Source: Gemmatimonadota bacterium
GTDB lineage: Bacteria; Gemmatimonadota; Gemmatimonadetes; Gemmatimonadales; GWC2-71-9
Assembly (NCBI GenBank): GCA_039931815.1
Contig: JBDTRF010000002.1
Location: 1-42,424, forward strand
DNA: 42,424 nt
Direction: 5' to 3'
This document shows, one piece after another, positions 1 to 36,518 of the stretch. The position numbers were made by a program, and so were the translations under genes. The notes under the pieces are model-generated. The model made no database searches. It was not told where the DNA came from and was given only the letters and a program-made list of their open reading frames with translations. Numbering within the stretch: the first letter of the stretch is position 1; every line of letters begins with the position of its first letter.

Positions 1-737
1 TCGGTGATCGGGATCTGCCAGACCCAGCTGTTGGTGATGGGCAGGAAGTGGACATAGATGTAGTCCCCCTTCTGCTGCTCGCCCTTCATCGTCGACAAAC
101 GGTCATAATTGTCGAACCAGGTGTGAATGGCGTACTGATCGAACACCTTGTCCATGATCTTGAGTTTGAGCCGATTGCCGAGAAACGTCTTCCGTCCGCT
201 CGCGTCTGCGACAATCTTGCAGGTGACACTGGATTCAACCGGCCCGATCATGAACTTCATGCGCGGAAATGGACCGCTGAAATCGACATCCCTGACACCA
301 ACGCCCTCTACCACGGTGGCACCCAGGCTCTGCGCGTGCTGCAGCAGCAGGTTGTCGAACTTGCCGCGATCGACGTGGTACGTGTAGTTCTGCTCTACCC
401 CCGCCTGCTTCCGCTCCTCGAACCGGATGTCGGCGACGCAGTCGGCTTCCAGGCCATCCCACCCGTGCTCATAGGCCCGATTGCCGCCGGTGGCAGTCCA
501 GACGGCGCCAAACTTGTGGGGAAATTTTGCTTTCTCCATGACGGGGAGAAAATCGAGATCCCGAAAGACCCGGGTCGAGGAAGGCACCAGGGATTCGCCG
601 ACATGATGGCGGGGAAAGAGGTCTCGCTCGAACACGATGACCTTCTTGCCCGCCTTGGCGAGATACGAGGCTAGTGCGCCGCCCGCTGGGCCGCCGCCGA
701 CAATACCAACATCGAAATCCGGCTGTTCGTGCATCAT
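1..737 (-). CDS. FADH2-dependent halogenase, PltA-like (N-terminal 245 codons; the gene runs off the left edge and is absent from the supplied ORF track)
   Basis: Minus-strand ATG at 737-735. Own translation: MMHEQPDFDVGIVGGGPAGGALASYLAKAGKKVIVFERDLFPRHHVGESLVP..KFPHKFGAVW..YHVDRGKFD..IVADASGR..YVHFLPITNSWVWQIPIT, open to nt 3. It has a GxGxxG FAD fold, Lys75 at the position of the catalytic Lys of flavin halogenases, and a WxWxIP signature at nt 9-26. It runs nearly collinear with my recollection of pyoluteorin PltA. The + ORF 48-674 is its antisense shadow. Confidence 0.8.
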   Translation of the reverse strand, partial: MMHEQPDFDVGIVGGGPAGGALASYLAKAGKKVIVFERDLFPRHHVGESLVPSSTRVFRDLDFLPVMEKAKFPHKFGAVWTATGGNRAYEHGWDGLEADCVADIRFEERKQAGVEQNYTYHVDRGKFDNLLLQHAQSLGATVVEGVGVRDVDFSGPFPRMKFMIGPVESSVTCKIVADASGRKTFLGNRLKLKIMDKVFDQYAIHTWFDNYDRLSTMKGEQQKGDYIYVHFLPITNSWVWQIPIT

Positions 738-773
738 GGTCTCCTCAAATGCGTGATGGAGGCGTGTAATCGT

Positions 774-2093
774 TCAGGCGACCGGAGTTCCCCCGGTTTT
801 GCCAATCAGGCTTTCGGGGCCAAACGTAGCGGCATCCTCGGGATTCTCACCCGCCGCGGAAAGGATGCGCTCAAGGTCCATACGCTCATACCCTCCGCTC
901 AGCAGCACGATAAATCGCTCGCGCAGCAGGGGGATCTGGCGGGCCCGGCTGATGATGTTGTTAGCTTCCTTCTTGTCGAGAATGCTGTACCAGTTGTAGA
1001 TCATCCGGAAAATCGACAGCATCGGATGCTTGATCCGCTTTTCGTATGGCCGCAGCCGTTCGGCGCTGAAGTCGTTGTGCTTGAAACAATCGAGAATGCA
1101 CTCGGCCGAATACACTCCGGCGCGAGTGGCAAGCGTCACGCCCGCCGAGAAAATCGGGTCTACGAACATGGCCGCATCCCCGATGAGGACGAAGCCGTTC
1201 CCGACGAAGGATTCATTGAGATATGAAATGTTGGAAATGGTATGCATCTGCATTTCCTGTTTCGCGCCCTGCAACCAGTCCCGAATCTTGTCACATTTCG
1301 AGATCGCGTAGTCAAACCGCTCCTGCGGCCCCTTGATGTGGCCGGCCCACTTGGCGTCCAGCACGGCTCCCACGCTGACCACGTCCCCGCTCAGCGGGAT
1401 ATACCAGATCCAGCCACCCTCAATGGTGTGGATGTCGGTGGCGGTCGAGTTGGGAAGGATATCCGATACGTTGGTGAGCACGTCCCGCTGATCGCGGCGA
1501 TAGCCGCCATGGAAGTGGGTGAAATGGGCAATCTTGTTGAGCGCGGGATCGGGCTTTCTCCAGCCCATGCGGCGTGCGATAAGGCAATCACGGCCGGTCG
1601 CATCGACGACCATTTTCGCCTCGATCCGATGCGGTTCTTCCCCGTTGGGGCCAGCCAGGACACCCACGGCCCGGTCCCCCTCGAACAACACTTCCTTGAC
1701 CGTCCATTCTTCCCGGACTTCGGCGCCACGCTTGCGGGCATTGTTCAGCAGGATCTCGTCAAACTTCGCCCGTTCGACATGGTACGCGTAGGTTCGTCGG
1801 AACACCTCGGGGTATTCGGCCGTGAGGAGCTTGACATCCTCAGGCTGGTTGAACATCCCGAACATGATGCCCTGTTTGGGAGGGAACCCCGCGCTCTCGA
1901 TGGCCGGGACGGCCCCAATCTTCTCCCACAAGTCCCAAATCCCGGGAAGGAGAGACTCACCGATATGGAACCGGGGAAAGCGTTCCCGTTCGAGCACCAG
2001 GACACGCAGGCCCTCGGGGGCGAGCATGGCTGCCGAGCTCGAGCCACCGGGTCCTCCTCCCATGATGACCACGTCAAACTTTTCGACCTTCAT
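774..2093 (-). CDS. FADH2-dependent halogenase family protein (second, divergent copy)
   Basis: Track ORF 774-2183, with the start trimmed to ATG 2093 (MKVEKFDVVIMGGGPGG; GGAG about 8 nt upstream). Motifs: GxGxxG, HIGESLLP, a conserved Lys in GFPPKQG, GGWIWYIP (WxWxIP, nt 1395-1412) and FVDPIFSAG. Confidence 0.8.
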   Translation of the reverse strand: MKVEKFDVVIMGGGPGGSSSAAMLAPEGLRVLVLERERFPRFHIGESLLPGIWDLWEKIGAVPAIESAGFPPKQGIMFGMFNQPEDVKLLTAEYPEVFRRTYAYHVERAKFDEILLNNARKRGAEVREEWTVKEVLFEGDRAVGVLAGPNGEEPHRIEAKMVVDATGRDCLIARRMGWRKPDPALNKIAHFTHFHGGYRRDQRDVLTNVSDILPNSTATDIHTIEGGWIWYIPLSGDVVSVGAVLDAKWAGHIKGPQERFDYAISKCDKIRDWLQGAKQEMQMHTISNISYLNESFVGNGFVLIGDAAMFVDPIFSAGVTLATRAGVYSAECILDCFKHNDFSAERLRPYEKRIKHPMLSIFRMIYNWYSILDKKEANNIISRARQIPLLRERFIVLLSGGYERMDLERILSAAGENPEDAATFGPESLIGKTGGTPVA

Positions 2094-2525
2094 CTTTGGT
2101 CTCCGCGAAGTGAGGTGATACATGTTCCTGGTATGGCGAGTTGCACACAGCGCTGGCGATACCCGTTCGCCTCCCAGCCCCACGTGCTACCAGTAAAATA
2201 GAAGGTCGGATACACCCCTTGATGCTTCAGGCGCGAACCAGGGGGAAAGGCAATCGGCAACAGATGTTGCTCACCAGCAACACCGCAGGTCCCTGCGGGC
2301 AAGTCAAGGGGACTCACTTGCCAGTGGGGGTACCTTCCCGATATGGTGGCTCGATTTGCCGGCTGATCCGCTCCGACCCGACTGGAAATAGCACAAAATG
2401 TGCCTTAGCTCTCAAATGAAACTGAAAGAGAAAATCAGCCCCCGCAGCGACTTATCGGTATTGGGGTATGAGTCCTGCACGAAACTCCCTGATCATACCT
2501 ACCCGCAAACAACCCAGAGGTTTCC

Positions 2526-3677
2526 ATGGATTTCTCCTGGTCGAGCGAACAACTCGAATTCAGGCAGGCGGTCATCGATTTTGCCCATAAGGCCCTGCAG
2601 GACGACCTGATCAGCCGGGACCGGACCAGCGAATTCTCCCGCCGGATGTGGTCCCGATGTGGCGAGTTCGGCATCCAGGGCCTCCCCTTCCCCGAGGAAT
2701 ACGGGGGCGCCGGAAGCGACATCCTGACCACCATCCTGGCCATGGAAGCGCTGGGATATGGCTGCAAGGATAACGGCCTGCTCTTTGGTCTGGCCGCCCA
2801 GATGTGGAGTGTCCAGATGCCAATTTTCAAGTTTGGCTCGGATGCGGCCAAGGCAAAATACCTCCCTCTTCTCAATCGTGGGGAATGGATCGGTGCCCAT
2901 GGCATGAGCGAACCCGACTCAGGGTCCGATGCCTTTGCACTCCGGACCACGGCTGAGCGCCAGGGGGAGACGTACGTGCTGAACGGGACCAAGACTTTTG
3001 TAAGCAACGGGCCCGCCGCGGACCTTTTCCTGATCTTCGCCTCAATGGACCGAAGCAAGGGTTTTCTGGGCTTGACGGGCTTCCTGGTCGAACGCTCGAC
3101 GCCAGGCTTAACCGTGAGCAAAGAGATCGAGAAAATGGGCCTGCGCACTTCTCCCATGGCCGAAGTCGTCATGGATGGGTGCGTTATTCCTCTGGAGAAT
3201 CGGATTGGCCGAGAAGGTCGAGGAGGAGCGGTCTTTAATGATTCAATGGAGTGGGAGCGAGGCTGCATTCTGGCGAGTTACCTCGGGTCGATGGAGCGTC
3301 AACTGGAAACCTCCATCCGGTATGCCCAGGAGCGCCGTCAATTCGGGCATCCCATTGGACAGTTTCAGTCCGTCGCTAACAAGATGGTGGATATGAAGGT
3401 GAGGATGGAGACCGCCCGGCTGATCCTGTACAAAGCGGCGTGGAGCAAACAGCAGGGGACCGGCGCCCACCAGGGCGAGGATGCTGCCATTGCCAAACTC
3501 TACCTGAGCGAAGCCTGGGTAAAGTCCTGCCTCGATGCAGTTCAGATCCACGGTGGCTACGGGTTTACCACCGAATATGAAGTGGAACGGGATCTCCGAG
3601 ACTCGGTCGGGGGGACCCTCTATTCGGGCACGTCCGAGATCCAGAGAACCCTGATCGCCCGCCACCTCGGGCTCTAG
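2526..3677 (+). CDS. Acyl-CoA dehydrogenase family protein, probably acting on a carrier-protein-bound acyl or aminoacyl substrate
   Basis: 383-aa ORF with AGAGG upstream of the ATG. ACAD motifs present: GMSEPDSGSD, IHGGYGFTTEY and a C-terminal YSGTSEIQR. The canonical C-terminal catalytic Glu (YEGT) is Ser367 here, while Glu244 (MEWER) sits at the isovaleryl-CoA dehydrogenase-type base position. Confidence 0.85.
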   Translation: MDFSWSSEQLEFRQAVIDFAHKALQDDLISRDRTSEFSRRMWSRCGEFGIQGLPFPEEYGGAGSDILTTILAMEALGYGCKDNGLLFGLAAQMWSVQMPIFKFGSDAAKAKYLPLLNRGEWIGAHGMSEPDSGSDAFALRTTAERQGETYVLNGTKTFVSNGPAADLFLIFASMDRSKGFLGLTGFLVERSTPGLTVSKEIEKMGLRTSPMAEVVMDGCVIPLENRIGREGRGGAVFNDSMEWERGCILASYLGSMERQLETSIRYAQERRQFGHPIGQFQSVANKMVDMKVRMETARLILYKAAWSKQQGTGAHQGEDAAIAKLYLSEAWVKSCLDAVQIHGGYGFTTEYEVERDLRDSVGGTLYSGTSEIQRTLIARHLGL

Positions 3678-3994
3678 GCCACGTGGTGTGGGCAAATCGC
3701 AACATGCGGGGTAATTATCGGCCAGAATCAGCCGGATAAGACCACGGTAAATCATTACTACAAATTAGGTTACACTTAATTGTGATGCTGCTCACACCGT
3801 GGCACGGTGGTAGCAGAAACGGGTCAGGCTATCAGTCCCAGGTAGGCAGGGTACGTCAGAGCGCCGGCCGCGCGACTGTCACTGGAATATTTCCAGATCC
3901 GCCGACCAGCACCTCCATTTCACATTCGATGCACATGGCGTCTCCGCGATGGATCGGAGCCGCAGGGAAACGTGCTACTCAAGGAACCAGAGCC

Positions 3995-6508
3995 ATGACG
4001 GTTGGGAGTCTCACCGCCACGCCAGGCGAGGAAGTTCGCAGCCGGACGGCGTTGATCGAGGCCATTCGCCTGCTGGGGCTCTCGGCCCAGCTTGGCCTGG
4101 CCCTGCTCGTTATCCGCCTTTTTCATTTCGAGGGTCCGGCATTTAACCGGATGATCCTGCTGGCGTCGGCTGGCTTTGTGATCAATGCCGTCCTTCCACG
4201 CGCGCTTCGCCAGCCCTGGTTTATTCTGATCTCGCTGCTTGGCATCGGCGTGATTTTCGGGCTGCACGATGGGCTGTGGATGATCGGGATCGGCCTCGGT
4301 CTCATCGCGGTCTGCCATCTGCCAATGTCCTGGTGGTCCCGGGTTACGCTCGTCATTCTCGCGGGTGCCGGTCTGGCGGCCACGCGCATCGGCTGGCTCA
4401 CGCTGCCCTTCTCGCTCTCCGTGTGGCCGGTGCTGGGTTCGATGTTCATGTTTCGCCTGATGGTGTACCTCCACCACCTGCGGCACAATCCGACCAAAGT
4501 CTCGCCCCAGCGGGCGCTGGCCTACTTCTTCATGCTTCCCAATGTCTCGTTCCCCCTCTTCCCCGTGGTGGACTACAAGACGTTCGACACGACCTACTAC
4601 GATCAGGATGCGTACAAAACCTACCAGGCTGGCCTCCGCTACATCGCCCGGGGTTTGCTTCACCTCCTGATTTATCGCTACGTGTATTACTACGTCGCCA
4701 GAGATCCCGCCGAAGTGTCCAACCTGGGCGACCTGATGTTGTACGTTATTTCCACGTACCTCGTCTATGTCCGGGTATCCGGTCAATTTCACATTATTGT
4801 CGGCGTCCTCCACCTGTACGGCTGGAGAATGCCACCCGCGAACAATCTCTACTTCCTGGCCTCCGGCTTCACCGAGATCTGGCGCCGGAATAACATTTAC
4901 TGGAAAGACTTCATGATGAAGCTGGTGTACTATCCCAGCTTTTTCCGGTTTCGCAAATATGGCGGGACCATGGCGCTGATCGGCGCGACCATCCTGGTGT
5001 TCTTCCTCACCTGGCTGCTCCATTCCTACCAGTGGTTCTGGATTCGGGGCGAGTTCCCCATTACCCAGACCGACATTGCCTTCTGGGGGGCGATCGGCGG
5101 GTTCATGCTGTACGAAATGCTGCGCGAGAGCCGGAGGACCGCGGCCGGCGTTCGGGCCTCGGTTGTCCGCCGATGGAGCCTGGCGCGCGCGCTCCGCACC
5201 GTCGGGTTCTTCGCCCTCTTTTCGACCCTGTGGGCCCTCTGGGACAGCTCATCGATTGGCGATTTCGTTTCCCTCTGGGCCATGGCCACCCGCTTTGACA
5301 CTCACACGCTCGTCCTGGCCGGGGGAATCCTGGTCGCCGCGCTGATTTTCACTGGTTTTCCCTGGACTGTCCAGAGTCTCAAACCCCAGGCGACAAGCAC
5401 GTCCATCTGGGCGCGACAGGATGTTCAGACGGTGAGCCTGTGCGCCGGGCTTCTGCTCATCGGTATGCCAGGCGTTACCAACCTGTTCGGTCACTCCGTG
5501 ACTCAGTTCACCCAGTCTCTTCGCGAAACAAAGCTCAACGAGCGCGATGCGGCTTCCCAGCATCGCGGCTACTATGAGCAGCTCAACGTGCATACCAGTG
5601 CGGCGGACGGCGGCGAGTTGCGCCAGGCGAACGCGGATCGCCCCCAGGACTGGGTACCGTTGACCCAGACCGCGGTCTACCGCGAGCTCGATACGTTCCT
5701 CGGTGGCGAGCTGGTACCCCGGTCTCACGCCGACTTCAAGGGAGAAGTCCTCAACATCAATCGTTGGGGCATGCGCGATCGTGATTATACGGTTAACAAA
5801 CCAGCAGGAACCTACCGAATCGTCATCCTCGGGCCTTCGGATGTCATGGGTGCCGGAGTAGCCGACTCCCAGACCTTCGAGAACCTGGTCGAGGATCGGC
5901 TCAACCAGGCATCCCATGCTGGCGGCCGTCGGTATGAGATCCTGAATTTTTCCGTCGTGTCGTACAGCATGCTGCAACAGATGCAGATGCTCACCGAGCG
6001 GGTCGTCAGGTTCCAGCCGGACATGATTCTTGTTTCCTACCATCCGATTTCCGAATCACGCTTCTCGTTTCAATACCTGGCGAACCTTGCCCGTTTTGGG
6101 AAAGAGATTCCGTACCGGGAGCTGAAAGACATCGTGAAGCGGTCGGGAGTTCGCCGTGGCATGCAGCAGCCTGACGCCTTCCGCCGGATGAAACCGTTCG
6201 GCCCCGAGTTAGTGCAATGGGCGCTCGGCCGGGTCAAAGCCATGGGCGATTCCCTCGCAATCCCTGTCGGGATGTTCGTTCGCGACTTGCCGGCAGAGCG
6301 CTCGGAAATACCGAACGCGTCCATCGATTATGCCCGCACGACGGGGTTTCACATCTTCGACGTCCGGGGGATTTACGACGGACACGACCCGTCAACTCTG
6401 CTCCTCGCCTCCTGGGACAAGCACCCCAATGCACTGGGTCATCGCCTGATAGCCGATCGCCTCTTTGATGAGATGGTCGCTGACTCGACACTCAAGCTGA
6501 TTCCTTAG
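3995..6508 (+). CDS. MBOAT-family membrane acyltransferase fused to a C-terminal SGNH/GDSL-like domain (paralog 1)
   Basis: Track ORF 3782-6508. The start was moved to ATG 3995 (AAGGAA upstream) because the N-terminus then aligns with paralog 2. The protein is polytopic. Divergent MBOAT core: VSGQFHIIVG..FTEIWRRNNIYWKDFMMKLVYYP..TWLLHS, with Asn (nt 4892-4894) and His (nt 5021-5023) 43 residues apart. C-terminal SGNH-like blocks: RIVILGPSDVMGAGV, YEILNFSV and WDKHPNALGH. Confidence 0.75.
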   Translation: MTVGSLTATPGEEVRSRTALIEAIRLLGLSAQLGLALLVIRLFHFEGPAFNRMILLASAGFVINAVLPRALRQPWFILISLLGIGVIFGLHDGLWMIGIGLGLIAVCHLPMSWWSRVTLVILAGAGLAATRIGWLTLPFSLSVWPVLGSMFMFRLMVYLHHLRHNPTKVSPQRALAYFFMLPNVSFPLFPVVDYKTFDTTYYDQDAYKTYQAGLRYIARGLLHLLIYRYVYYYVARDPAEVSNLGDLMLYVISTYLVYVRVSGQFHIIVGVLHLYGWRMPPANNLYFLASGFTEIWRRNNIYWKDFMMKLVYYPSFFRFRKYGGTMALIGATILVFFLTWLLHSYQWFWIRGEFPITQTDIAFWGAIGGFMLYEMLRESRRTAAGVRASVVRRWSLARALRTVGFFALFSTLWALWDSSSIGDFVSLWAMATRFDTHTLVLAGGILVAALIFTGFPWTVQSLKPQATSTSIWARQDVQTVSLCAGLLLIGMPGVTNLFGHSVTQFTQSLRETKLNERDAASQHRGYYEQLNVHTSAADGGELRQANADRPQDWVPLTQTAVYRELDTFLGGELVPRSHADFKGEVLNINRWGMRDRDYTVNKPAGTYRIVILGPSDVMGAGVADSQTFENLVEDRLNQASHAGGRRYEILNFSVVSYSMLQQMQMLTERVVRFQPDMILVSYHPISESRFSFQYLANLARFGKEIPYRELKDIVKRSGVRRGMQQPDAFRRMKPFGPELVQWALGRVKAMGDSLAIPVGMFVRDLPAERSEIPNASIDYARTTGFHIFDVRGIYDGHDPSTLLLASWDKHPNALGHRLIADRLFDEMVADSTLKLIP

Positions 6509-6540
6509 CGAACCCGCTATTTGCGCAGGAAAGGTCTGGT

Positions 6541-9084
6541 ATGGCGACAGGCGCAATGGTCGTCGCTCGAGAGCGGGCGACTCACCTCCTCAACTGGACG
6601 ACCCTGAGCCGACTGCTGGCGACCACCCTGCAGTTAGGGCTTGCCGTGCTGATTGTTCGCCAGTTCCAGATCGAAAGCCGGGCCTTCTACAACCTGTCCC
6701 TGCTGGTCCTCGGCGGCTTCGTCCTTCATGTCGCGCTTCCCGCAGTGTACCGGCTGCCCTTTTTTGCGCTCCTCTCCCTGACGGGTACACTGGTCGTGCT
6801 GGGCATTGGAAACGGGCTCTGGGTGTTGGGATTGGGCGGGCTCCTCCTGGTGCTCTGCCACTTGCCCGCCCGGTTTGGTCTCCGCCTGGGCCTGATTCTT
6901 GGAGCCGCAATCCTCCTCGCTGCTTTTCGCACCCGGTTATTGCCCTCGGGCATTCCACTGGCAATCTGGCCTGTCCTGGCCTCGATGTTCATGTTCCGGA
7001 TGGCCATCTACCTGTACGATCTGAACCATTCGGAGAAGGCCGGCAGTCCAGCCCAGATCATAGCCTACTTCTTCATGCTTCCGAACACGGCATTCCCCCT
7101 TTTTCCTGTCGTGGACTACAAGACGTTCATCCGAACCTACTACGACGAGGACGAGTGGCAGATTTACCAGCGCGGGATGCAATGGATCCTCCGTGGCCTG
7201 CTCCATCTCATCGCCTATCGCCTGGTCTATCACTATCTCACGCTTGACCTGGCGGAGGTACGAACCGGACCGCAGGTCATCGAGTATATTTTTTCCTCAT
7301 TCATTCTGTACCTGCGCGTTTCAGGCATGTACCACATCGCCGTCGGCATCCTCCACCTGTTCGGTTTCCGGCTTCCCGAAACGAATCACTTCTGGTTGTT
7401 CTGCCAGAGCTTCACCGATCTCTGGCGGCGGATGAATATCTATTTCAAGGATTTCATGATGAAGCTGGTGTATTACCCCAGCTTCTTTCGCCTTCGCAGG
7501 ACGGGAAATCGGAAAGCCATCGCCCTGGCGCTTGTCGCGGTGTTTGTCATGACGTGGGCGCTCCACGCGGTGCAGTGGTTCTGGCTGCGAGGCGGCCTGT
7601 TGCTCACCTTCCAGGATATGCTTTTCTACGTCATCCTCGGATCACTGGTTATTTACCAGTCCCTCAAGGAAGCGAAACCGGGCCGCCGTCGGATGACCGA
7701 TACAGGCCAGGCCGGCTGGAGCGCCAGGCGGTCGCTCAACGCCTTCCTCACCATGGGCCTCCTCATGACCGTCTGGTCGTTCTGGACGGCGGACTCGGTG
7801 GATCAGTGGCTCGCGATGTGGTCCACGCTATCAGTCTGGCCGGCGAGGGGCACCGCGATCGTGGCCGTTTCCCTCATCGGCTACCTGGCGATGGCCGGGC
7901 TACCCTGGAGAGCGCCGGACCTGTCAGCCAGGAAACCGGCAGGACTCTTTCGCCCCGCCTTGCTGACGACCGGAGCGCTTTCCCTCATCTTTGTCGTCGG
8001 GCAGCCTCGGATCTATCAACGCCTGAGTCCCAGGACGGTGGCGGTGGTTCAGACGATCCAGGAGAATCGTCTCAACCAGCGGGACAATGCCATTCTCCTC
8101 CGCGGCTACTATGAAAAAGTGGACAACGGTAATCAGCTGGGAAGCCAGCTGTGGGAGGTCAAGGAAGGCGAACCCGATAACCTCCGTATCACCGAAACCG
8201 CCGCGTTTCGGGGGCGCGACGATTTCCTGGGTGGGGAGCTGATTCCGTCCATCAGCACGGTGTTCAAGGAACGGGAATTCCAGACCAATCGATGGGGAAT
8301 GCACGACCGTGATTACGAGCACGCCAAGGCGCCGGGAACCTGGCGCGTAACCCTGCTGGGACCATCCGATGTGATGGGCCCCGGTGTTGGGGAGGGCGAA
8401 ACGTTCGAAGCCCTGGTCGAGGAACGGCTCAATCGCGAACACCGTGGTGACAGGCACCAGCGCTACGAAATCCTCAACTTCGGCGTTGCCGCGTTTACGC
8501 TTCCTCAGCAGGTTGCCATGCTGGACCAGCGGGCACTCGAATTTGATCCTGACGCGGTTATGATCACCTTTCATCCTGCTTCCGACCCGCCTACCGCACT
8601 GCGTTATGTTACGGGCGCCGTCCTTCGCGGCACGGAGATTCCTTATCCGGAACTTCAGGGCTACATCCTGAAATCCGGGGTCACCCGTACGACCCGGGAA
8701 GCCAGCGCCAAGCGCCAGCTTTGGCCTTACGCCAACGCCATGCTGGAATGGAGTTTCCGGCAGATGGCCGAGGCCTGTCGCGCGCGGGGAATTCCGATCG
8801 TGCTGCTGGTCCTGGATGCCATCAACGAGCCTTCGGATCCTGAACAGCCGCTGATCCGCTACGCCGACAGCCTGGGTTACATCGTCGTTGACTTGCGAAA
8901 TGCGCCGAAAGGTCACGATCCCGGGAGCCTGATGCTGGCCGAGTGGGATCGCCACCCCAACAAGCTGGGCCACCGGCTGCTGGCCGATGCCCTGTACGGA
9001 CAGCTGGTTTCCCTCGGCGATACACTGGGACTCGGGCTCAAACCAACATCCACAGTTTCCCTTACCAACCAGGAGGAGCAGTGA
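6541..9084 (+). CDS. MBOAT-family membrane acyltransferase fused to a C-terminal SGNH/GDSL-like domain (paralog 2)
   Basis: 847-aa ORF with AGGAAAGG upstream of ATG 6541. Collinear with paralog 1: FFMLPN.(A/S)FPLFPVVDYKTF, VSGMYHIAVG, FTDLWRRMNIYFKDFMMKLVYYP, TWALHA, then RVTLLGPSDVMGPGV, YEILNFGV and WDRHPNKLGH. Its stop TGA 9082-9084 overlaps the GTG start of the next gene. Confidence 0.8.
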   Translation: MATGAMVVARERATHLLNWTTLSRLLATTLQLGLAVLIVRQFQIESRAFYNLSLLVLGGFVLHVALPAVYRLPFFALLSLTGTLVVLGIGNGLWVLGLGGLLLVLCHLPARFGLRLGLILGAAILLAAFRTRLLPSGIPLAIWPVLASMFMFRMAIYLYDLNHSEKAGSPAQIIAYFFMLPNTAFPLFPVVDYKTFIRTYYDEDEWQIYQRGMQWILRGLLHLIAYRLVYHYLTLDLAEVRTGPQVIEYIFSSFILYLRVSGMYHIAVGILHLFGFRLPETNHFWLFCQSFTDLWRRMNIYFKDFMMKLVYYPSFFRLRRTGNRKAIALALVAVFVMTWALHAVQWFWLRGGLLLTFQDMLFYVILGSLVIYQSLKEAKPGRRRMTDTGQAGWSARRSLNAFLTMGLLMTVWSFWTADSVDQWLAMWSTLSVWPARGTAIVAVSLIGYLAMAGLPWRAPDLSARKPAGLFRPALLTTGALSLIFVVGQPRIYQRLSPRTVAVVQTIQENRLNQRDNAILLRGYYEKVDNGNQLGSQLWEVKEGEPDNLRITETAAFRGRDDFLGGELIPSISTVFKEREFQTNRWGMHDRDYEHAKAPGTWRVTLLGPSDVMGPGVGEGETFEALVEERLNREHRGDRHQRYEILNFGVAAFTLPQQVAMLDQRALEFDPDAVMITFHPASDPPTALRYVTGAVLRGTEIPYPELQGYILKSGVTRTTREASAKRQLWPYANAMLEWSFRQMAEACRARGIPIVLLVLDAINEPSDPEQPLIRYADSLGYIVVDLRNAPKGHDPGSLMLAEWDRHPNKLGHRLLADALYGQLVSLGDTLGLGLKPTSTVSLTNQEEQ

Positions 9085-9344
9085 CCAACGACGAGATCAT
9101 GCGAACGGTGAAGGAATACATTCTCAAGACATTCCTTCCCGGAGAAGACCCCAAGGCGTTGACCGAGAGTACGCAGCTCATCACCGGCGGCGTCCTGGAC
9201 TCGCTGGCGACACTGGAGCTGGTTTCGTTTATCGAGCAGCAATACGGGATTGAACTCCAGGCGCACGAAGTCGACGCGGCAAACCTGGGAACCCTGCCGG
9301 CCATCGCGGCCCTGGTACAATCCAAGGTGGTCGCCCGCACGTGA
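9081..9344 (+). CDS. Small acyl/peptidyl carrier protein, DltC-like
   Basis: In-frame GTG 9081 lies just after AGGAGGAG (9071-9078), overlapping the upstream stop as GTGA. ATG 9099 is an alternative start. Phosphopantetheine site GGVLDSLATLELV (Ser codon 9201-9203). The pattern G.LDS..T.EL...IE..Y.I resembles DltC. About 87 aa. Confidence 0.8.
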   Translation: MTNDEIMRTVKEYILKTFLPGEDPKALTESTQLITGGVLDSLATLELVSFIEQQYGIELQAHEVDAANLGTLPAIAALVQSKVVART

Positions 9345-10909
9345 GCGATACCACGTTGCACCGGATGATGGAAACCGCGGCGCACCGGTTCCCCGATCGC
9401 ACCGCGGTAGATGATCCTGGCAAGGGTACGATGACCTACCAGGACCTGGCGCGCCTGTCAGATAAGCTTCGTGACAGGCTGGCCGGGATGGGGGTGAAGC
9501 CGGGAGATCGTGTCGGTCTCTACATGGCCAAATCCATTGACGCCATCGTATCCATCTTCGGCATTCTGAAGACTGGCGCAGCCTACGTGCCGGTTGATCC
9601 GGGCGCCCCCGCTCCCCGTTGCGCCTACATTCTCAACAACTGCTCCGTACGTGTCATTATCACTGAACGACGCCTGGCGGATGAGCTGACGGGGGAGCTG
9701 ACCGCCCTGGGGTCGGTGCCACCGCTCTTCATCATCGATGAGCCCCGCGACGGGGTTCTGCCTCTGTCACGACTGCTCCAGGCGGAGGACGAGAAAAACC
9801 CGGCGCCCGTAGTCGCCAGCGCCGATCCCGGACCCGACGGCCTGGCGTATATCCTTTATACGTCGGGATCGACCGGCAAGCCGAAGGGCGTCATGCTGAC
9901 CCACCGCTGTGCGGTCAGCTACGTCGATTGGTGCTCGGCCGTTTTTCTCCCCACTCCGGAAGACCGCTTCTCCTCACACGCCCCGCTTCACTTTGACCTC
10001 TCGATCCTCGACATCTACGTCCCGCTCAAGCACGGCGCGACGCTGATCCTGATTGGCGAGGAACTGGGGAAGGACCCGCTCAATCTCGCTCCGCTGATCG
10101 CGGAGAAGCGCATCACGGTATGGTACTCGACGCCTTCGATTCTGAGCCTGCTGGCGCAGTACGGCAAACTTGCCCGCCACGACTATTCCGCACTCCGATT
10201 TGTCTTTTTTGCGGGCGAGGTCTTTCCAGTACCGCAGCTGCGCGCGCTGCACGCGCTCTGGCCTCATCCCCGTTACTTCAATTTGTATGGCCCCACCGAG
10301 ACGAACGTGTGCACCTATTACGAGGTGCCTGCCCAGATACCGCCGGAGCGCACGGAGCCATTCCCGATTGGAAAGACCTGTGAGCACCTCGAGTGCAAGG
10401 TGGTCGACCTGGACGGATCGACTGTACCGCGGGGCGCGGAGGGAGAGCTGGTCGTGTGGGGACCCGGCGTCATGATCGGATACTGGAATCTCCCGGAACA
10501 GAACGCCGCAGCCTTCATGGTCGACCCCGATGGCAAGAAATGGTATCACACGGGAGACCTGGTCGTGGAGGAGCCGAACGGGGACTATATCTTCCACGGA
10601 CGGCGGGACCGGATGGTGAAGCGGCGTGGCTACCGGGTCGAGCTGGGCGAGATTGAGGCCGGCCTGGCGACCCATCCGCAAGCGAAAGAAGTGGCCGTCG
10701 TGGCGCTACCCGACAGAGACGCGGGAGTAAGGATCAAGGCATTCCTTTCCATCAAGAACGGAAAGGCGCCGAGTATCATCGAGATGAAACAGTTTTGTAT
10801 GGAAACGTTGCCGAAGTATATGGTACCCGACGTGTTTACCTTTCTCGAAGCGCTGCCAAGGACCTCGACCGACAAAATAGACTATCAGAAACTTAAAGAA
10901 ACCAACTGA
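9341..10909 (+). CDS. Stand-alone amino-acid adenylation enzyme (ANL superfamily; DltA/PltF-like carrier-protein ligase)
   Basis: GTG 9341 overlaps the carrier-gene stop as GTGA. NRPS A-domain cores are present: LAYILYTSGSTGKPKG (A3), HFDLSI (A4), NLYGPTE (A5), GELVVWGPGVMIGYW (A6), YHTGDL (A7), GRRDRMVKRRGYRVELGEIE (A8), LPKYMVP (A9) and TSTDKID (A10). There are no C, T or TE domains. Confidence 0.9.
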   Translation: MSDTTLHRMMETAAHRFPDRTAVDDPGKGTMTYQDLARLSDKLRDRLAGMGVKPGDRVGLYMAKSIDAIVSIFGILKTGAAYVPVDPGAPAPRCAYILNNCSVRVIITERRLADELTGELTALGSVPPLFIIDEPRDGVLPLSRLLQAEDEKNPAPVVASADPGPDGLAYILYTSGSTGKPKGVMLTHRCAVSYVDWCSAVFLPTPEDRFSSHAPLHFDLSILDIYVPLKHGATLILIGEELGKDPLNLAPLIAEKRITVWYSTPSILSLLAQYGKLARHDYSALRFVFFAGEVFPVPQLRALHALWPHPRYFNLYGPTETNVCTYYEVPAQIPPERTEPFPIGKTCEHLECKVVDLDGSTVPRGAEGELVVWGPGVMIGYWNLPEQNAAAFMVDPDGKKWYHTGDLVVEEPNGDYIFHGRRDRMVKRRGYRVELGEIEAGLATHPQAKEVAVVALPDRDAGVRIKAFLSIKNGKAPSIIEMKQFCMETLPKYMVPDVFTFLEALPRTSTDKIDYQKLKETN

Positions 10910-23457: not shown

Positions 23458-25125
23458 TCACTTCGAGCGCATCACCACAATGTCCCCACCACCTACCGTC
23501 CCCGGGAAATTGGCCGCCAGGGTATAGTGCTCCTGGATCCGTGCCCAGATCTCCGGCTCTACCACGGCGAGCCGGATGGGGAAGGTGTAGACCAGCCAGG
23601 TTCGGGTATGCTGCGCTTCGATTTCCCTGAGCACCGACAGGCTATCCACGGGCAGGTAGCTCGTGTGATAGAACTCGTGATAGGGATACCGGGTCAAATC
23701 GACGGTCACAACGGCGTCCGTGGCCCCGGCTTCCCGACTCAGGAATGTGCTCGCCCCGGTGTAGTCCTGCTTGGGACCCCAGGCCTTGGGGACGGTGATA
23801 GCGCTGGCGCAGATAACCAGAATCGTCCCGACAGGAGCGAGCACCCGAAATCGGGGTGGCAGCAGCCATTCAACCAGGGCATAGCCGCCCCGGATCAGAA
23901 TCAACACCCCGAATCCGGCAGAGAAGAAAAAGAATCGGGGCCACAGATTGTGCTTGAGCGCAATCAGCGCGAGGCCGCTCAGCACCGCCGGGAGCAGCAT
24001 GGTAACGAGACCAGCCCTGGTTCGCTTCCAGTAGCTGATGATTCCAGCCGCGATGACCACGAGCCCGAGTGCAAGGGTGATCCATCCACCCGGAATGCCT
24101 TCTCCCAGGCCCCGAAGCGATTCGGTCAGAAACCAGAGCGGGCTCTGCCAGGCAGTCTGCGCCGCTCCCCTGGGCGGATGAAGCACCGTGGCGAACATCT
24201 GCGGCAGCACGATCGCATACAGCTGCAGCGTGATCGTCGCCGCGAAGAGAATCCCCCATCCCGGCAACCACGCATCAAACCCGCGCGGGCGCTGCTTCAT
24301 GCGAAAGAGAAGCACGACCCAGATCAGGAAATGCGCGACCGAGACAATGACCGCGGTGATATGGGTGTAGGCCGCAAGGCCCATACACAGGCCATAGACG
24401 ATGGCCACCCCCCACGGATGACGGTACCGACCCGTCACCATGCGGATAAATGCCGCGCTCGCCAGCAGAGTCCAGAGCAGAAGCCCGGTGTATCCACGGG
24501 CGTTCTGGGAAAACCAGACATGATGGTACGAGAAGGCCAGAAATGCAGCGGCCAGCAAGGCTTCCGCTCGTCCCGTGATCAGCCGGGCGAAATAGTACAC
24601 CGCCCATACACTGGCAACACCGAACACCGCCGCCGGCAATCGAAGTGCACCGGCACTTTCTCCAAAAATGCTGATCGAGCAGCGAGCCAGCACCGAATAC
24701 AGCAGGTGCTGATTCTGGCTGTCATACGTCGTCAGGACCCGCCCCATCGGCAGCCGGACGTAGTCGACGAGGGTCTGGATCTCATCAAACCAGAGGCCGT
24801 TCGGCAAATCGTACAGCCGAAGCAGCAGGGCGACCAGAAGTATCGCCGCCAGGGTCGCCAGCTCCCAGCGACTGGCGCGTTGAAATGGCTCATCGGCAAA
24901 CGACGCCAACGCAGTGCCGCGCACATTCTTAAGCCCCAACCGCGGAATAATGATGAGAATCGCGGCGTGCAGCAGCAGCATGCCTTTGAGGCACCATACC
25001 CCATTTTGCACGGTGGCGAGCATCGCCGACCCTCCGCCGACCAGAAAGGCCGCGGTGGCATGGACCGGCAGGGCCAGACCGAGCAGGATCAGCACGGCGG
25101 CAAGGGCGATGCTAGTTCGTGACAT
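23458..25125 (-). CDS. GT-C glycosyltransferase, ArnT/PMT-like (GT39/GT83-type)
   Basis: 555-aa polytopic ORF. The first-loop LWFDE motif is typical of polyprenyl-phosphate-sugar-dependent GT-C enzymes, and there is a soluble C-terminal domain. Confidence 0.75.
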   Translation of the reverse strand: MSRTSIALAAVLILLGLALPVHATAAFLVGGGSAMLATVQNGVWCLKGMLLLHAAILIIIPRLGLKNVRGTALASFADEPFQRASRWELATLAAILLVALLLRLYDLPNGLWFDEIQTLVDYVRLPMGRVLTTYDSQNQHLLYSVLARCSISIFGESAGALRLPAAVFGVASVWAVYYFARLITGRAEALLAAAFLAFSYHHVWFSQNARGYTGLLLWTLLASAAFIRMVTGRYRHPWGVAIVYGLCMGLAAYTHITAVIVSVAHFLIWVVLLFRMKQRPRGFDAWLPGWGILFAATITLQLYAIVLPQMFATVLHPPRGAAQTAWQSPLWFLTESLRGLGEGIPGGWITLALGLVVIAAGIISYWKRTRAGLVTMLLPAVLSGLALIALKHNLWPRFFFFSAGFGVLILIRGGYALVEWLLPPRFRVLAPVGTILVICASAITVPKAWGPKQDYTGASTFLSREAGATDAVVTVDLTRYPYHEFYHTSYLPVDSLSVLREIEAQHTRTWLVYTFPIRLAVVEPEIWARIQEHYTLAANFPGTVGGGDIVVMRSK

Positions 25126-25357
25126 TCAAAGGCTTAGGAGGCCGGGATGCTACGGAATCGTGCCCGGTACAGAGCAATGTCCGTTCCAGTGATGCCCCTT
25201 GGGGGATCGGTAGGAATGCACTAAGATGTGTGGCGACACCGCAACAAACAAGGTACCAATGCCCGTCGCGACGTCTAGCATCTATCCTGCTGATACCGGC
25301 AAGGTGCAGGATCTGGGCGGCCGGTTCTCGAATTTCCCCCTCATTTGAAGCGCTCGT

Positions 25358-27205: not shown

Positions 27206-27281
27206 TTCGGCAACCAACGACCGCGGGAAATGAGAACGAAGTTCTTCCCCGGCGGGGTCGCGGAAGAGCGCGTTTCCCGGC

Positions 27282-36003: not shown

Positions 36004-36053
36004 GGATTGACGCGCGCCCTTTCGGCGCCGGACCGCAAGTTGAAAACCGTCGC

Positions 36054-36221: not shown

Positions 36222-36518
36222 CGGATAAAACCTTTCTGAGCGGAGGCAGTTCGTTCGGAATCGAGCCGACAAGGCCACGCCATTCGAGCGTCATGTTCAG
36301 GTCGGGACTAGAATCGCCAAAGCAGGGTGTGCGGGAAGGACCGGTAACATCAGCCTTGGCTAGCAACCCCTATGCCAGCAACAACATAGTACATACTTTC
36401 TCAACGCCGAGGCCTAGGGAGAGGCGGAGCCTTAAGATGGGTCCTCGGGCAGCGAAACGCCATTCCAGAAAGCCACCCTGGAGTGTGGCGTCCACCCTAC
36501 ACCCACGACATCGCCGCG

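What the first reader, a model, noticed from the sequence alone, without database searches (positions are those of the whole stretch)
1..10909. Pyrrolyl-carrier-protein halogenation chemistry merged with a Dlt-like MBOAT export module
Seen in sequence: seven adjacent genes. There are two flavin halogenases with WxWxIP and the catalytic-position Lys (1-737, 774-2093, minus strand). Divergently transcribed on the plus strand are an ACAD (2526-3677), two MBOAT-SGNH fusions (3995-6508, 6541-9084), a DltC-like carrier (9081-9344) and a stand-alone adenylase (9341-10909). The last three junctions are GTGA start/stop overlaps. Established knowledge: (i) Pro-AMP ligase + carrier + ACAD-type dehydrogenase + FADH2 halogenase is the canonical route to (halo)pyrrolyl-2-carboxyl-S-carrier protein (PltF/PltL/PltE/PltA in pyoluteorin, Bmp1-4, hormaomycin HrmK-Q). 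(ii) Adenylase + small carrier + MBOAT + SGNH-like protein is the Dlt D-alanylation logic (DltA/C/B/D), where the MBOAT passes the carrier-bound acyl group across the membrane. Inference: the window contains no condensation domain, ketosynthase, thioesterase or soluble acyltransferase. The only candidate acceptors for the tailored carrier thioester are therefore the MBOAT-SGNH proteins. That predicts O-acylation of an extracytoplasmic glycan or lipid, probably the product of the surrounding glycosylation locus, with a dehydrogenated and possibly halogenated aminoacyl or pyrrolyl group. I know of no described example of this combination.
Basis: partly seen in the sequence, partly recalled or inferred. 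Interest (0 to 1): 0.92.

Follow-up and report, generated by a model that had tools for sequence, protein, structure and literature searches.

The report
Proline-derived pyrrole acylation of envelope glycans
Seven adjacent genes appear to turn proline into a (probably halogenated) pyrrole acid on a small carrier protein. They then pass it to two membrane enzymes of the kind that decorate cell-surface polymers, a conserved pairing found across many bacterial phyla that I could not find described in the literature.

Summary
The seven genes are real and lie at the stated coordinates.

**Corrections to the observation**
- Halogenase 1 is cut by the window edge.
- Only two junctions, not three, are GTGA overlaps.
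- The membrane domains match no Pfam MBOAT model. They are MBOAT-like by predicted fold only (best hit DltB).
- The carrier resembles prolyl carriers more than DltC.

**Evidence on the parts**
- The adenylase binding pocket matches the proline ligase PltF at 9 of 10 code positions. The family majority matches all positions compared.
- The dehydrogenase belongs to the prolyl-carrier dehydrogenase clade.
- The full-length orthologue of halogenase 1 scores 559-588 bits against Mpy16, ChlB4 and PltA, which halogenate pyrrolyl carriers.

**Conservation**
- In a survey of 79 species genomes, 42 of 43 loci with enough flanking DNA carry at least one cassette partner beside the MBOAT-SGNH gene. Thirty-four carry carrier, adenylase and dehydrogenase together.
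- Halogenases occur in a minority of loci.
- No condensation, ketosynthase or thioesterase partner was found.

**Best reading**
This is a Dlt-like, carrier-dependent transfer of a proline-derived acyl group across the membrane onto an envelope glycan.

**Main uncertainties**
- The oxidation state is open, because AnaB, a two-electron oxidase, nests inside the dehydrogenase clade.
- The acceptor is unknown.

I judge it a new variant of a known kind, of high interest.

The parts
3..737 (-). Halogenase 1. This is the N-terminal 245 aa of a PltA/Mpy16/ChlB4-type flavin-dependent halogenase; the rest lies beyond the left edge of the window.
   Evidence: Pfam Trp_halogenase match. Motifs: GGGPAG at 681-698, Lys in FPHKFG at 507-524, WVWQIP at 9-26. 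The 89%-identical full-length orthologue L001:4418-5767 scores 588, 580 and 559 bits against Mpy16 (5buk), ChlB4 (7fco) and PltA (5dbj).
774..2093 (-). Halogenase 2, a second and more divergent flavin-dependent halogenase of 439 aa, counted from ATG 2093. The ORF extends to GTG 2183.
   Evidence: Pfam Trp_halogenase at 115 bits. Best PDB matches are CndH (3e1t, 209 bits), 8zop, PltA (190 bits) and ChlB4. Motifs: Lys in FPPKQG at 1869-1886 and WIWYIP at 1395-1412. It is 31% identical to halogenase 1.
2526..3677 (+). Prolyl-carrier-protein dehydrogenase (ACAD fold, 383 aa).
   Evidence: NCBIfam PigA model 453 bits and RedW model 422 bits. PDB matches: AnaB 475 bits, Bmp3 337, 5zw0 327, against about 285 for generic ACADs. 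A neighbour-joining tree puts it in one clade with AnaB.
3800..3815 (+). Sigma-54-type -24/-12 promoter-like element, TGGCACGGTGGTAGCA, upstream of mb1.
   Evidence: It is the only match in the window (0.03 expected by chance) and is conserved in the same intergenic region of L001, L002, L005 and L007.
3995..6508 (+). mb1: an MBOAT-like membrane domain fused to an extracytoplasmic SGNH domain (837 aa).
   Evidence: 41% identical to mb2. It keeps every invariant column of the family: WRRNN at 4880-4894, His in WLLHSYQW at 5012-5035, RGYYEQL at 5564-5584, GPSDVMG at 5831-5851 and WDKHPN at 6413-6430. Orthologues are present in L001, L002, L005, L007 and L008.
6541..9084 (+). mb2: the second MBOAT-like/SGNH fusion (847 aa).
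   Evidence: AlphaFold model pLDDT 84.9. Foldseek finds DltB first (E 6e-8), then HHAT. The C-terminal domain matches SGNH esterases. Invariant motifs: WRRMN at 7423-7437, His342 at 7555-7578, RGYYEKV at 8101-8121 in a flexible linker, Ser609 in GPSDVMG at 8359-8379, and D803/H805 at 8944-8961. The positively charged loops 379-394 and 453-469 place the SGNH domain outside the cell.
9081..9344 (+). Small carrier protein (87 aa). The phosphopantetheine-attachment Ser lies in LDSLA at 9195-9209.
   Evidence: Pfam PP-binding match. Best PDB matches are prolyl-type carriers: Bmp1 carrier, PigG and PltL. Its GTG start overlaps the mb2 stop codon.
9341..10909 (+). Stand-alone adenylating enzyme (522 aa) predicted to activate L-proline.
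   Evidence: TIGR01733 at 383 bits. PltF (6o6e) scores 350 bits against 215 for DltA. The specificity code is DLLSFALVCK, against PltF residues DLLSLALVC. Its GTG start overlaps the carrier stop codon.

Best explanation
The locus encodes a carrier-protein-dependent system that acylates an envelope component across the membrane, with a proline-derived acyl group.

Proposed steps:
1. The adenylase activates L-proline and loads it onto the 87-aa carrier. This is supported by sequence.
2. The ACAD-type dehydrogenase oxidises prolyl-S-carrier, most likely to pyrrole-2-carboxyl-S-carrier. The family assignment is shown; the number of oxidations is inferred.
3. The PltA-type halogenase 1 and the divergent halogenase 2 halogenate the pyrrole ring while it is on the carrier. 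This is inferred from about 60% identity to enzymes of known function.
4. The acyl-carrier docks on the cytoplasmic face of the MBOAT-like domain of mb1 and/or mb2. The invariant His catalyses transfer of the acyl group to the outer face, probably onto an invariant Tyr in the flexible linker motif RGYYExL. This step is inferred by analogy with DltB/DltX and PatA.
5. The fused SGNH domain takes the acyl group on its Ser and transfers it to a hydroxyl of an extracytoplasmic acceptor. The acceptor is most likely the sulfated, polyprenol-phosphate-assembled glycan made by the neighbouring genes. This step is inferred.

The four-gene core without halogenases is a widespread module inserted into varied polysaccharide loci.
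For: **Proline activation.** PltF is the best stand-alone PDB match (350 bits, against 215 for DltA). Nine of ten specificity-code positions equal those of PltF. The family majority code, DLLSLALVCK, equals PltF at all nine pocket positions compared, in 43 of 59 loci.

**Dehydrogenase.** It matches the PigA and RedW models and the AnaB structure far better than generic ACADs.

**Halogenases.** The halogenase 1 orthologue scores 559-588 bits against Mpy16, ChlB4 and PltA. Both halogenases have the Lys and the WxWxIP motif.

**MBOAT and SGNH domains.** DltB is the best structural match, and the SGNH fold is recovered for the C-terminal domain. The His, Asn, YY and Ser/Asp/His columns are invariant in 54 homologues. 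Charge distribution places the SGNH domain outside the cell.

**Functional coupling.**
- Start and stop codons overlap at mb2/carrier and carrier/adenylase.
- Of 43 species-level loci with at least 6 kb on both sides, 42 carry a carrier, adenylase or ACAD next to the MBOAT-SGNH gene. Thirty-four carry all three at stringent cut-offs.
- Seventy of all 79 loci have the carrier.

**No competing acceptor.** No C, KS or TE gene lies in the window or in the syntenic flanks. No multimodular NRPS signal appears in the surveyed loci.

**Glycan context.** Recurrent neighbours are GT4 and GT-C glycosyltransferases, a carbamoyltransferase, a polysaccharide deacetylase, asparagine synthase and Wzm/Wzt. In this window the neighbours are a sulfotransferase, GT2s, a Wzx-like flippase and GT-C enzymes.

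**Mechanistic precedent.** The Dlt and PatAB acyl-Tyr shuttle is described in PMC12148441.
Against: - No biochemical step has been tested.
- The MBOAT assignment is by fold only. Pfam and HMMER profiles find nothing.
- The closest characterised dehydrogenase is AnaB. It nests inside the cassette ACAD clade in 60 of 60 bootstraps and stops at 1-pyrroline-5-carboxyl-ACP (PMC6053186). The pyrrole-forming Bmp3 and the 5zw0 enzyme lie outside that clade.
- The linker motif GYYExL only loosely resembles FxYxxF.
- The SGNH domain resembles generic esterases such as TesA and acetylxylan esterases. DltD and PatB are not among the 50 matches listed, so hydrolysis rather than transfer is not excluded.
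- The acceptor is unknown.
- No flavin reductase gene was identified in the window.
- The genome beyond the left edge of the window is unseen.
Confidence: 0.55

Rival explanations
1. The pathway logic is the same, but the transferred group is not a pyrrole. The dehydrogenase performs a single two-electron oxidation, as AnaB does, and the MBOAT-SGNH enzymes transfer a 1-pyrroline-5-carboxyl (dehydroprolyl) group. This would apply at least in the majority of loci that lack halogenases.
For: AnaB is the closest characterised homologue: 475 bits and about 54% identity, against 327-337 bits for pyrrole-forming enzymes. AnaB falls inside the cassette clade in 60 of 60 bootstraps. AnaB makes P5C-ACP (PMC6053186). 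Most cassettes carry no halogenase.
Against: In this window, halogenase 1 is about 60% identical to enzymes known only to act on pyrrolyl-S-carriers. Halogenase-bearing loci are scattered across the ACAD tree. That pattern suggests cassette ACADs in general supply the halogenase substrate. An imine thioester would also be a reactive, unstable decoration; this last point rests on my own chemical knowledge.
Confidence: 0.22
2. The MBOAT-SGNH proteins act as an export and release device rather than a polymer acyltransferase. The SGNH domain would hydrolyse the acyl intermediate, or transfer it to a small molecule or lipid, releasing a free or lipid-bound (halo)pyrrole-2-carboxylate outside the cell as a signal or antimicrobial.
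For: The best structural matches of the SGNH domain are esterases and thioesterases (TesA, acetylxylan esterases), not DltD or PatB. Free halopyrroles are known bioactive products of the related Bmp pathway (my own knowledge). No acceptor has been identified.
Against: The cassette is embedded in polysaccharide loci of varied types across phyla. Every characterised bacterial MBOAT/SGNH pair acylates a polymer (PMC12148441). A soluble thioesterase would be a far simpler way to release the acid.
Confidence: 0.13
3. The pyrrolyl carrier feeds an unseen PKS or NRPS elsewhere in the genome to make a conventional halopyrrole natural product. On this reading the MBOAT-SGNH genes belong only to the neighbouring glycan locus and use acetyl-CoA.
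For: Canonical pyrrole pathways do hand the carrier to a KS or C domain (my own knowledge). The window is cut at its left edge.
Against: Carrier, adenylase and ACAD sit directly beside the MBOAT-SGNH gene in nearly all informative loci across phyla. Here the stop and start codons overlap. In L001 the left flank is a Na+/H+ exchanger and an ECF sigma factor, not a synthase. No multimodular synthase signal was seen in the 83 loci.
Confidence: 0.05

Closest known systems
Dlt D-alanylation pathway (DltA, DltC, DltB, DltX, DltD) of Gram-positive teichoic acids
   Same: A stand-alone adenylase loads a small carrier. An MBOAT-fold membrane protein is present, and DltB is its best structural hit. An extracytoplasmic SGNH-type partner is present. 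PMC12148441 treats Dlt as the only MBOAT/SGNH pathway that uses a carrier protein instead of acyl-CoA.
   Different: The adenylase is PltF-like and proline-specific, not DltA. The acyl group is tailored on the carrier by a dehydrogenase and halogenases. MBOAT and SGNH are fused into one polypeptide. There is no separate DltX; an invariant GYYExL motif sits in the linker instead. The hosts are mostly diderm phyla that lack teichoic acids. The membrane domain is too divergent for the Pfam MBOAT model.
PatA/PatB, AlgI/AlgJ/AlgX and WssH-type MBOAT/SGNH O-acetylation of peptidoglycan, alginate and cellulose
   Same: The MBOAT core is followed by extra transmembrane helices and an outward-facing Tyr-containing segment, then an SGNH transferase acting on an extracytoplasmic glycan.
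   Different: Those systems use acetyl-CoA, have no carrier protein, and encode MBOAT and SGNH as separate proteins (PMC12148441).
Pyrrolyl-S-carrier pathways: PltF/PltL/PltE/PltA (pyoluteorin), Mpy15/16 (marinopyrrole), ChlB (chlorizidine), Bmp1-4
   Same: The chemical logic matches: a proline ligase, a type II carrier, an ACAD-type dehydrogenase and an FADH2-dependent halogenase. Halogenase 1 is about 60% identical to Mpy16, ChlB4 and PltA, and the adenylase pocket matches PltF.
   Different: No ketosynthase, condensation or thioesterase domain takes the product. MBOAT-SGNH genes occupy that position in the operon instead. The dehydrogenase is closer to AnaB than to Bmp3 or the 5zw0 enzyme.
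AnaC/AnaD/AnaB starter module of anatoxin-a biosynthesis
   Same: AnaB falls inside the cassette dehydrogenase clade with about 54% identity. Both systems oxidise prolyl-S-carrier.
   Different: AnaB stops at 1-pyrroline-5-carboxyl-ACP, and its product goes to a PKS (PMC6053186). The ana system has no MBOAT and no halogenase.
Clorobiocin/coumermycin 5-methylpyrrole-2-carboxyl transfer to noviose (CloN1-7). This comparison rests on my own knowledge and was not tested here.
   Same: A pyrrole-2-carboxyl group made on a carrier ends up as an ester on a sugar hydroxyl.
   Different: That transfer is cytoplasmic, uses soluble acyltransferases, and targets a small-molecule antibiotic rather than an envelope polymer.

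Membership tests
Dlt-type carrier-dependent MBOAT/SGNH acylation pathway | A stand-alone adenylating enzyme and a small phosphopantetheinyl carrier are encoded with the MBOAT gene. | tested here: met
   Matches to AMP-binding/TIGR01733 and PP-binding. The genes overlap the mb2 stop codon and each other. The carrier lies beside the MBOAT-SGNH gene in 70 of 79 loci.
Dlt-type carrier-dependent MBOAT/SGNH acylation pathway | The adenylase is a D-alanine-specific DltA orthologue. | tested here: not met
   The DltA models score 274-284 bits, below their cut-offs of 476 and 560. PltF scores 350 bits against 215 for DltA. The pocket code equals PltF at 9 of 10 positions, and DltA differs at several.
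Dlt-type carrier-dependent MBOAT/SGNH acylation pathway | A Tyr-containing acyl-shuttle motif FxYxxF, on DltX or at the MBOAT C-terminus. | tested here: inconclusive
   An invariant [RK]GYYEx[LVI] motif lies in a low-confidence (flexible) linker between the last transmembrane helix and the SGNH domain. The Tyr and the hydrophobic residue at +3 match; the first Phe does not.
MBOAT superfamily | A sequence match to the curated family model (Pfam PF03062). | tested here: not met
   The two window proteins give no hit at E<=10. None of 54 homologues gives a hit at E<=1. A family profile finds no MBOAT in the PDB.
MBOAT superfamily | The MBOAT fold, with an invariant catalytic His and an upstream Asn, Asp or His. 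| tested here: met
   The Foldseek top hits are DltB (E 6e-8, TM 0.57 over all of DltB), HHAT and DGAT1. N299 (in WRRxN) and H342 are invariant in 54 sequences. The residue-level structural alignment was not inspected.
SGNH hydrolase/transferase family | A Ser-Asp-His triad, the block III Asn and the SGNH fold. | tested here: met
   Weak Lipase_GDSL_2 hits occur in 48 of 54 members. TM is about 0.7 to TesA-type structures. S609, N646, D803 and H805 are invariant.
Pyrrolyl-S-carrier (Plt/Bmp/Mpy-type) tailoring pathway | An L-proline-specific stand-alone adenylase. | tested here: met
   This is a sequence-based prediction only.
Pyrrolyl-S-carrier (Plt/Bmp/Mpy-type) tailoring pathway | A prolyl-carrier dehydrogenase that performs the four-electron oxidation to pyrrole. 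| not testable with these tools
   Family membership is clear. However, the nearest characterised member, AnaB, performs only a two-electron oxidation.
Pyrrolyl-S-carrier (Plt/Bmp/Mpy-type) tailoring pathway | A carrier-dependent FADH2 halogenase with the catalytic Lys and the WxWxIP motif. | tested here: met
   
Pyrrolyl-S-carrier (Plt/Bmp/Mpy-type) tailoring pathway | Hand-over of the pyrrolyl group to a KS, C or TE domain in the same cluster. | tested here: not met
   No such domain appears among the ORFs of 150 aa or more in the window or in the syntenic flanks. No multimodular synthase signal was found in 83 loci.
AT3-SGNH (OatA-type) acyltransferases | [quoted passage not shown] | tested here: not met
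   There is no Acyl_transf_3 hit. The fold matches MBOAT proteins. Only the fused architecture is shared.

The most novel reading that the evidence does not exclude
A widespread family of carrier-protein-dependent MBOAT-SGNH fusion enzymes esterifies extracytoplasmic glycans with pyrrole-2-carboxyl groups made from proline. The family spans Gemmatimonadota, Betaproteobacteria including Accumulibacter, Acidobacteriota, Chloroflexota, Verrucomicrobiota and an alphaproteobacterial megaplasmid. In this lineage the groups would be chloro- or bromopyrrole esters. If so, this would be the second carrier-dependent MBOAT pathway after Dlt, the first heteroaromatic decoration of a bacterial envelope polymer, and the first enzymatically halogenated one. 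The anatoxin starter enzymes would be an offshoot of the same cassette.
Probability: 0.4. Interest if true: 0.92.

Novelty: new variant of a known kind. Interest (0 to 1): 0.82.

Why it matters
If correct, this links two fields that have been studied separately: type II NRPS tailoring of carrier-bound amino acids, and MBOAT/SGNH acylation of envelope polymers.

- It would extend carrier-dependent MBOAT chemistry beyond D-alanine. The 2025 mechanistic paper on these systems treats Dlt as the only such pathway.
- It predicts a new, UV-absorbing and possibly halogenated modification of surface glycans. The hosts are environmentally important, mostly uncultured phyla and wastewater organisms.
- The family is large: more than 2,500 protein clusters, and 497 hits among species-representative genomes. 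An uncharacterised envelope modification of this reach would affect how polysaccharide loci are annotated, and possibly surface properties, phage or predator resistance and organohalogen budgets.
- It offers a natural fused MBOAT-SGNH protein for mechanistic and structural work on the acyl-Tyr shuttle.

Tried and rejected
**Searches that found nothing**
- Pfam and NCBIfam scans of the membrane domains gave no MBOAT hit.
- A phmmer search with mb2 and a family profile, both against the PDB, gave no MBOAT hit. The MBOAT call therefore had to rest on fold.
- A tblastn search of the membrane domain against plasmids found only the Microvirga orthologue and no annotated MBOAT.
- A literature search for the specificity-code strings returned nothing relevant. 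I read the PltF residues from a PDB alignment of the pocket segment instead.
- An Rfam scan of the whole window gave no match.
- A UAS-like pattern drawn from the majority consensus of the relatives' intergenic regions has no exact match in the window.
- Five literature searches for any prior link between MBOAT or Dlt and prolyl, pyrrolyl or halogenase chemistry, or for pyrrole-carboxyl esters on polysaccharides, found none.

**Ideas considered and rejected**
- Ornithine-lipid pathway. The carrier's best NCBIfam hit is the OlsHI-associated ACP (98 bits, below the cut-off of 130). I rejected this because no OlsH (GH3-like) or OlsI gene was found in the window.
- AT3-SGNH (OatA-type) architecture. 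Rejected on domain and fold evidence.
- A conserved fifth partner gene. Clustering the neighbouring ORFs across 83 loci found none beyond the four core genes and the halogenases. That ORF calling was crude and produced antisense artefacts.

**Not attempted**
- Multimer modelling of the carrier with the MBOAT. The tool does not offer it.

Full report
**1. The observation**

ORF listing confirms seven adjacent genes:
- halogenase 1 (3-737, minus strand, cut by the window edge)
- halogenase 2 (774-2093, minus strand; the ORF extends to 2183)
- an acyl-CoA-dehydrogenase-fold gene (2526-3677, plus strand)
- two large membrane proteins (3995-6508 and 6541-9084)
- an 87-aa carrier (9081-9344)
- an adenylating enzyme (9341-10909)

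Pfam and NCBIfam confirm the halogenase, ACAD, PP-binding and AMP-binding assignments. Both halogenases carry GxGxxG, the Lys at the expected position (FPHKFG and FPPKQG) and WxWxIP.

Two details in the finding are wrong or overstated. First, only the mb2/carrier and carrier/adenylase junctions are GTGA overlaps; mb1 and mb2 are separated by 32 nt. Second, the MBOAT identity cannot be read from ordinary sequence models:
- Neither window protein hits a Pfam MBOAT model, even at E<=10.
- None of 54 homologues hits one at E<=1.
- A family HMM finds no MBOAT structure in the PDB.

**2. What the two membrane proteins are**

A search of the large protein collection returned more than 2,500 relatives of mb2. 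Nearly all are 830-970 aa long. Where JGI names them, it calls them "DltB (MBOAT superfamily)" or "AlgI".

An alignment of 54 of them (A1) has these invariant columns:
- in the membrane part: H265, N299 (within WRRxN) and H342
- in the linker: an invariant G522-Y523-Y524-E525 motif
- in the C-terminal domain: S609 (GPS), N646 and D803/H805

An AlphaFold model built on this alignment has mean pLDDT 84.9. Foldseek against the PDB ranks DltB first (8jem and 6bug, E 6e-8 to 2e-7, TM 0.57 over the full length of DltB). HHAT comes next, and DGAT1 further down. The C-terminal domain matches SGNH esterases with TM about 0.7.

The linker that holds the YY motif (517-543) is the only internal segment with pLDDT below 50, apart from one cytoplasmic loop. 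The loops at 379-394 and 453-469 are rich in Arg and Lys, which places the SGNH domain outside the cytoplasmic membrane.

So these are fused MBOAT-fold/SGNH proteins. The membrane domain is a divergent branch that curated models miss. The 2025 mechanistic paper on these systems describes MBOAT and SGNH as separate proteins and reserves fusion for AT3-SGNH enzymes. It states that MBOAT/SGNH pathways other than Dlt lack a carrier protein. It also shows that the acyl group travels on an invariant Tyr in an FxYxxF motif (PMC12148441). The invariant GYYEx[LVI] in the flexible linker is a plausible counterpart, but that is inference.

**3. The cytoplasmic chemistry**

*Adenylase.*
- Its best stand-alone match in the PDB is the proline ligase PltF (350 bits). 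DltA structures score 173-215 bits.
- In the pocket-forming segment PltF scores 128 bits, PigI 75 and DltA 64.
- I read the ten specificity positions from that alignment, using the GrsA motif positions from my own knowledge. The window enzyme is DLLSFALVCK. PltF has D-L-L-S-L-A-L-V-C at the same positions.
- Across 59 cassette adenylases, 43 have exactly DLLSLALVCK.

*Carrier.* Its best PDB hits are prolyl-type carriers (Bmp1 carrier, PigG, PltL), with DltC lower. All of these scores are weak.

*Dehydrogenase.*
- It scores 453 bits on NCBIfam's PigA model and 422 on the RedW model.
- Against structures it scores 475 bits to AnaB, 337 to Bmp3 and 327 to the 5zw0 prolyl-PCP dehydrogenase, compared with about 285 for generic ACADs.

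*Halogenases.*
- Halogenase 1 is truncated here. Its 89%-identical full-length orthologue in L001 scores 588, 580 and 559 bits against Mpy16, ChlB4 and PltA. From my own knowledge, these are the characterised pyrrolyl-S-carrier halogenases.
- Halogenase 2 is more distant. Its best hits are CndH at 209 bits and PltA at 190.

**4. Are the two halves functionally linked?**

*Close relatives.* The close relatives in metagenomes (L001, L002, L005, L007, L008; Gemmatimonadota and Gemmatimonadales MAGs) keep the gene set and the downstream sulfotransferase/GT2/GMC-oxidoreductase/epimerase genes.
- In L001 the left flank is a Na+/H+ exchanger and an ECF sigma/anti-sigma pair, not a synthase.
- In L002 an ABC transporter and a porin are inserted between the halogenases and the ACAD.
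- L005 has a third halogenase and an O-methyltransferase.

*Species-level survey.* I scanned one genome per species, which gave 497 confirmed relatives, and kept the best 79 loci. I scored these by tblastn with the window proteins.
- 70 of 79 loci have the carrier, 62 the ACAD and 54 the adenylase.
- Among the 43 loci with at least 6 kb on both sides, 42 have at least one of the three and 34 have all three at stringent thresholds. Three others carry a more divergent adenylase paralogue.
- The usual order is MBOAT-SGNH, then carrier, then adenylase, then ACAD.
- Halogenase 1- or 2-type genes (at least 40% identity) occur in 13 of 79 loci.

*Taxonomic spread.* The cassette occurs in Betaproteobacteria (Accumulibacter, Rhodoferax, Aromatoleum, Pseudothauera), Gammaproteobacteria (Methylomonas), Acidobacteriota, Chloroflexota, Verrucomicrobiota, Methylomirabilota and Gemmatimonadota. 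It also sits on a megaplasmid of the cultured Microvirga sp. VF16.

*Neighbours.* Clustering of neighbouring ORFs found no further conserved partner. The recurrent neighbours are GT4 and GT-C glycosyltransferases, a carbamoyltransferase, a polysaccharide deacetylase, asparagine synthase and Wzm/Wzt. No multimodular synthase signal was seen.

*This window.* The rest of the window holds no condensation, ketosynthase or thioesterase gene. It encodes:
- a sulfotransferase and several GT2 glycosyltransferases
- LPG_synthase_TM
- a DprE1/DprE2-like pair
- PMT_2 and GT87 GT-C enzymes
- a Wzx-like flippase

**5. Mechanism**

The best-supported reading has five steps.
1. Proline is adenylated and loaded on the carrier.
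2. It is oxidised by the ACAD.
3. In this lineage it is halogenated on the carrier.
4. It passes through the MBOAT-fold domain to an outward-facing Tyr.
5. It is picked up by the fused SGNH Ser and esterified onto an extracytoplasmic acceptor, most likely the glycan made by the surrounding genes.

Steps 1-3 rest on strong sequence similarity to characterised enzymes. Steps 4-5 rest on fold, invariant residues, operon structure, conserved synteny and analogy with Dlt and PatAB. The presence of two paralogues (41% identical) may reflect two acceptors or two acyl forms, but this is not resolved.

**6. The main chemical uncertainty**

In a neighbour-joining tree of 66 cassette ACADs plus references, AnaB falls inside the cassette clade, next to the Microvirga enzyme. 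In bootstraps run on a subsample of about 30 of those sequences plus the references, AnaB groups with the window enzyme to the exclusion of Bmp3 and the 5zw0 enzyme in 60 of 60 replicates. The whole cassette-plus-AnaB group excludes them in 54 of 60.

AnaB is reported to stop at 1-pyrroline-5-carboxyl-ACP (PMC6053186). A dehydroprolyl rather than pyrrolyl group is therefore a serious rival, especially for the cassettes that lack halogenases.

Two points argue against this for the present window. A PltA-family halogenase is present, and halogenase-bearing loci are scattered across the ACAD tree. Together these suggest that cassette ACADs generally supply a pyrrole.

The other rivals are less likely, for the reasons given in their entries:
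- hydrolytic release of a free halopyrrole acid
- a distant PKS or NRPS partner

**7. Novelty**

Five full-text searches found no paper that connects MBOAT or Dlt-type proteins with prolyl or pyrrolyl carriers or with halogenases, and none describing pyrrole-carboxyl esters on polysaccharides. The library does not cover most subscription journals, so this is absence in what was searched.

I classify the system as a new variant of a known kind. It follows Dlt-like logic with three differences: a tailored heterocyclic acyl group, a fused MBOAT-SGNH architecture, and a wide distribution outside the Firmicutes.

**8. Limits**

- Nothing here is biochemical.
- The MBOAT call depends on a predicted structure.
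- The tree is neighbour-joining, uses reference sequences transcribed from printed alignments, and was bootstrapped on a subsample.
- The co-occurrence counts use tblastn thresholds on loci of unequal length.
- The source genome beyond the left edge of the window is unknown.

Noticed in passing
window 3800-3815 (+): A sigma-54-type -24/-12 element, TGGCACGGTGGTAGCA, lies about 180 nt upstream of mb1. It is the only match in the window (0.03 expected by chance). It is conserved in the ACAD-to-mb1 spacer of L001, L002, L005 and L007, next to a second conserved block (TTGCAACATGC) just after the ACAD stop codon.
   Followed up: partly
L001 1754-3049; L029, L041, L044, L069 (4236-5702), L078: A Na+/H+ exchanger family gene (PF00999) recurs beside the halogenase genes in six halogenase-bearing loci. 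The ORF clustering did not pick it up in halogenase-free loci. It may be linked to halide or ion supply.
   Followed up: partly
L002 1579-5576: In one close relative, an ABC transporter (NMT1/phosphonate-type binding protein, permease and ATPase) and an Alginate_exp-type porin are inserted between the halogenases and the ACAD.
   Followed up: no
L005 1-4436 and 14363-15412: Another relative has a third halogenase and a radical SAM gene upstream, plus an O-methyltransferase directly after the adenylase. This suggests further tailoring of the acyl group.
   Followed up: no
window 23458-30270 and 34735-37937: A DprE1-like FAD oxidase (27230-29509, about 320 aa longer at the N-terminus than the matched domain) and a DprE2-like SDR (29506-30270) sit with GT-C enzymes (PMT_2, GT87, DUF2298) and a Wzx-like flippase. 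This resembles a polyprenyl-phosphate sugar epimerisation route, like the one that makes decaprenyl-phospho-arabinose, in a Gemmatimonadota-like genome.
   Followed up: no
window 39357-40511 (-): A separate, stand-alone GDSL/SGNH-like protein is encoded at the far end of the glycan locus. Stand-alone membrane-anchored GDSL genes also recur in the Chloroflexota cassette loci (for example L041 14955-16076).
   Followed up: no
PDB 4irn (AnaB) versus cassette ACADs in L001-L085: The anatoxin enzyme AnaB nests inside the cassette dehydrogenase clade. The anatoxin starter module may therefore have been recruited from this envelope-acylation cassette, or the reverse.
   Followed up: partly
L069 (4 copies), L071 (3 copies), L070 (2 copies): Some Cytophagia-like and unclassified MAGs carry arrays of three or four MBOAT-SGNH paralogues in one locus, with up to three halogenase-like genes.
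   Followed up: no
L020, L043, L053, L078, L084: Several loci, mostly Chloroflexota, carry an adenylase paralogue about 42-46% identical to the window enzyme. Where the pocket code could be read (L020, L043, L078) it is DLFSLALVCK. In L053, L078 and L084 it lies beside a closer (62-70%) copy.
   Followed up: no
window 9081-9344: The carrier's best NCBIfam hit is the ACP associated with the recently described planctomycete OlsH/OlsI ornithine-lipid pathway (98 bits, below the cut-off of 130). No OlsH or OlsI homologue was found in the window.
   Followed up: partly
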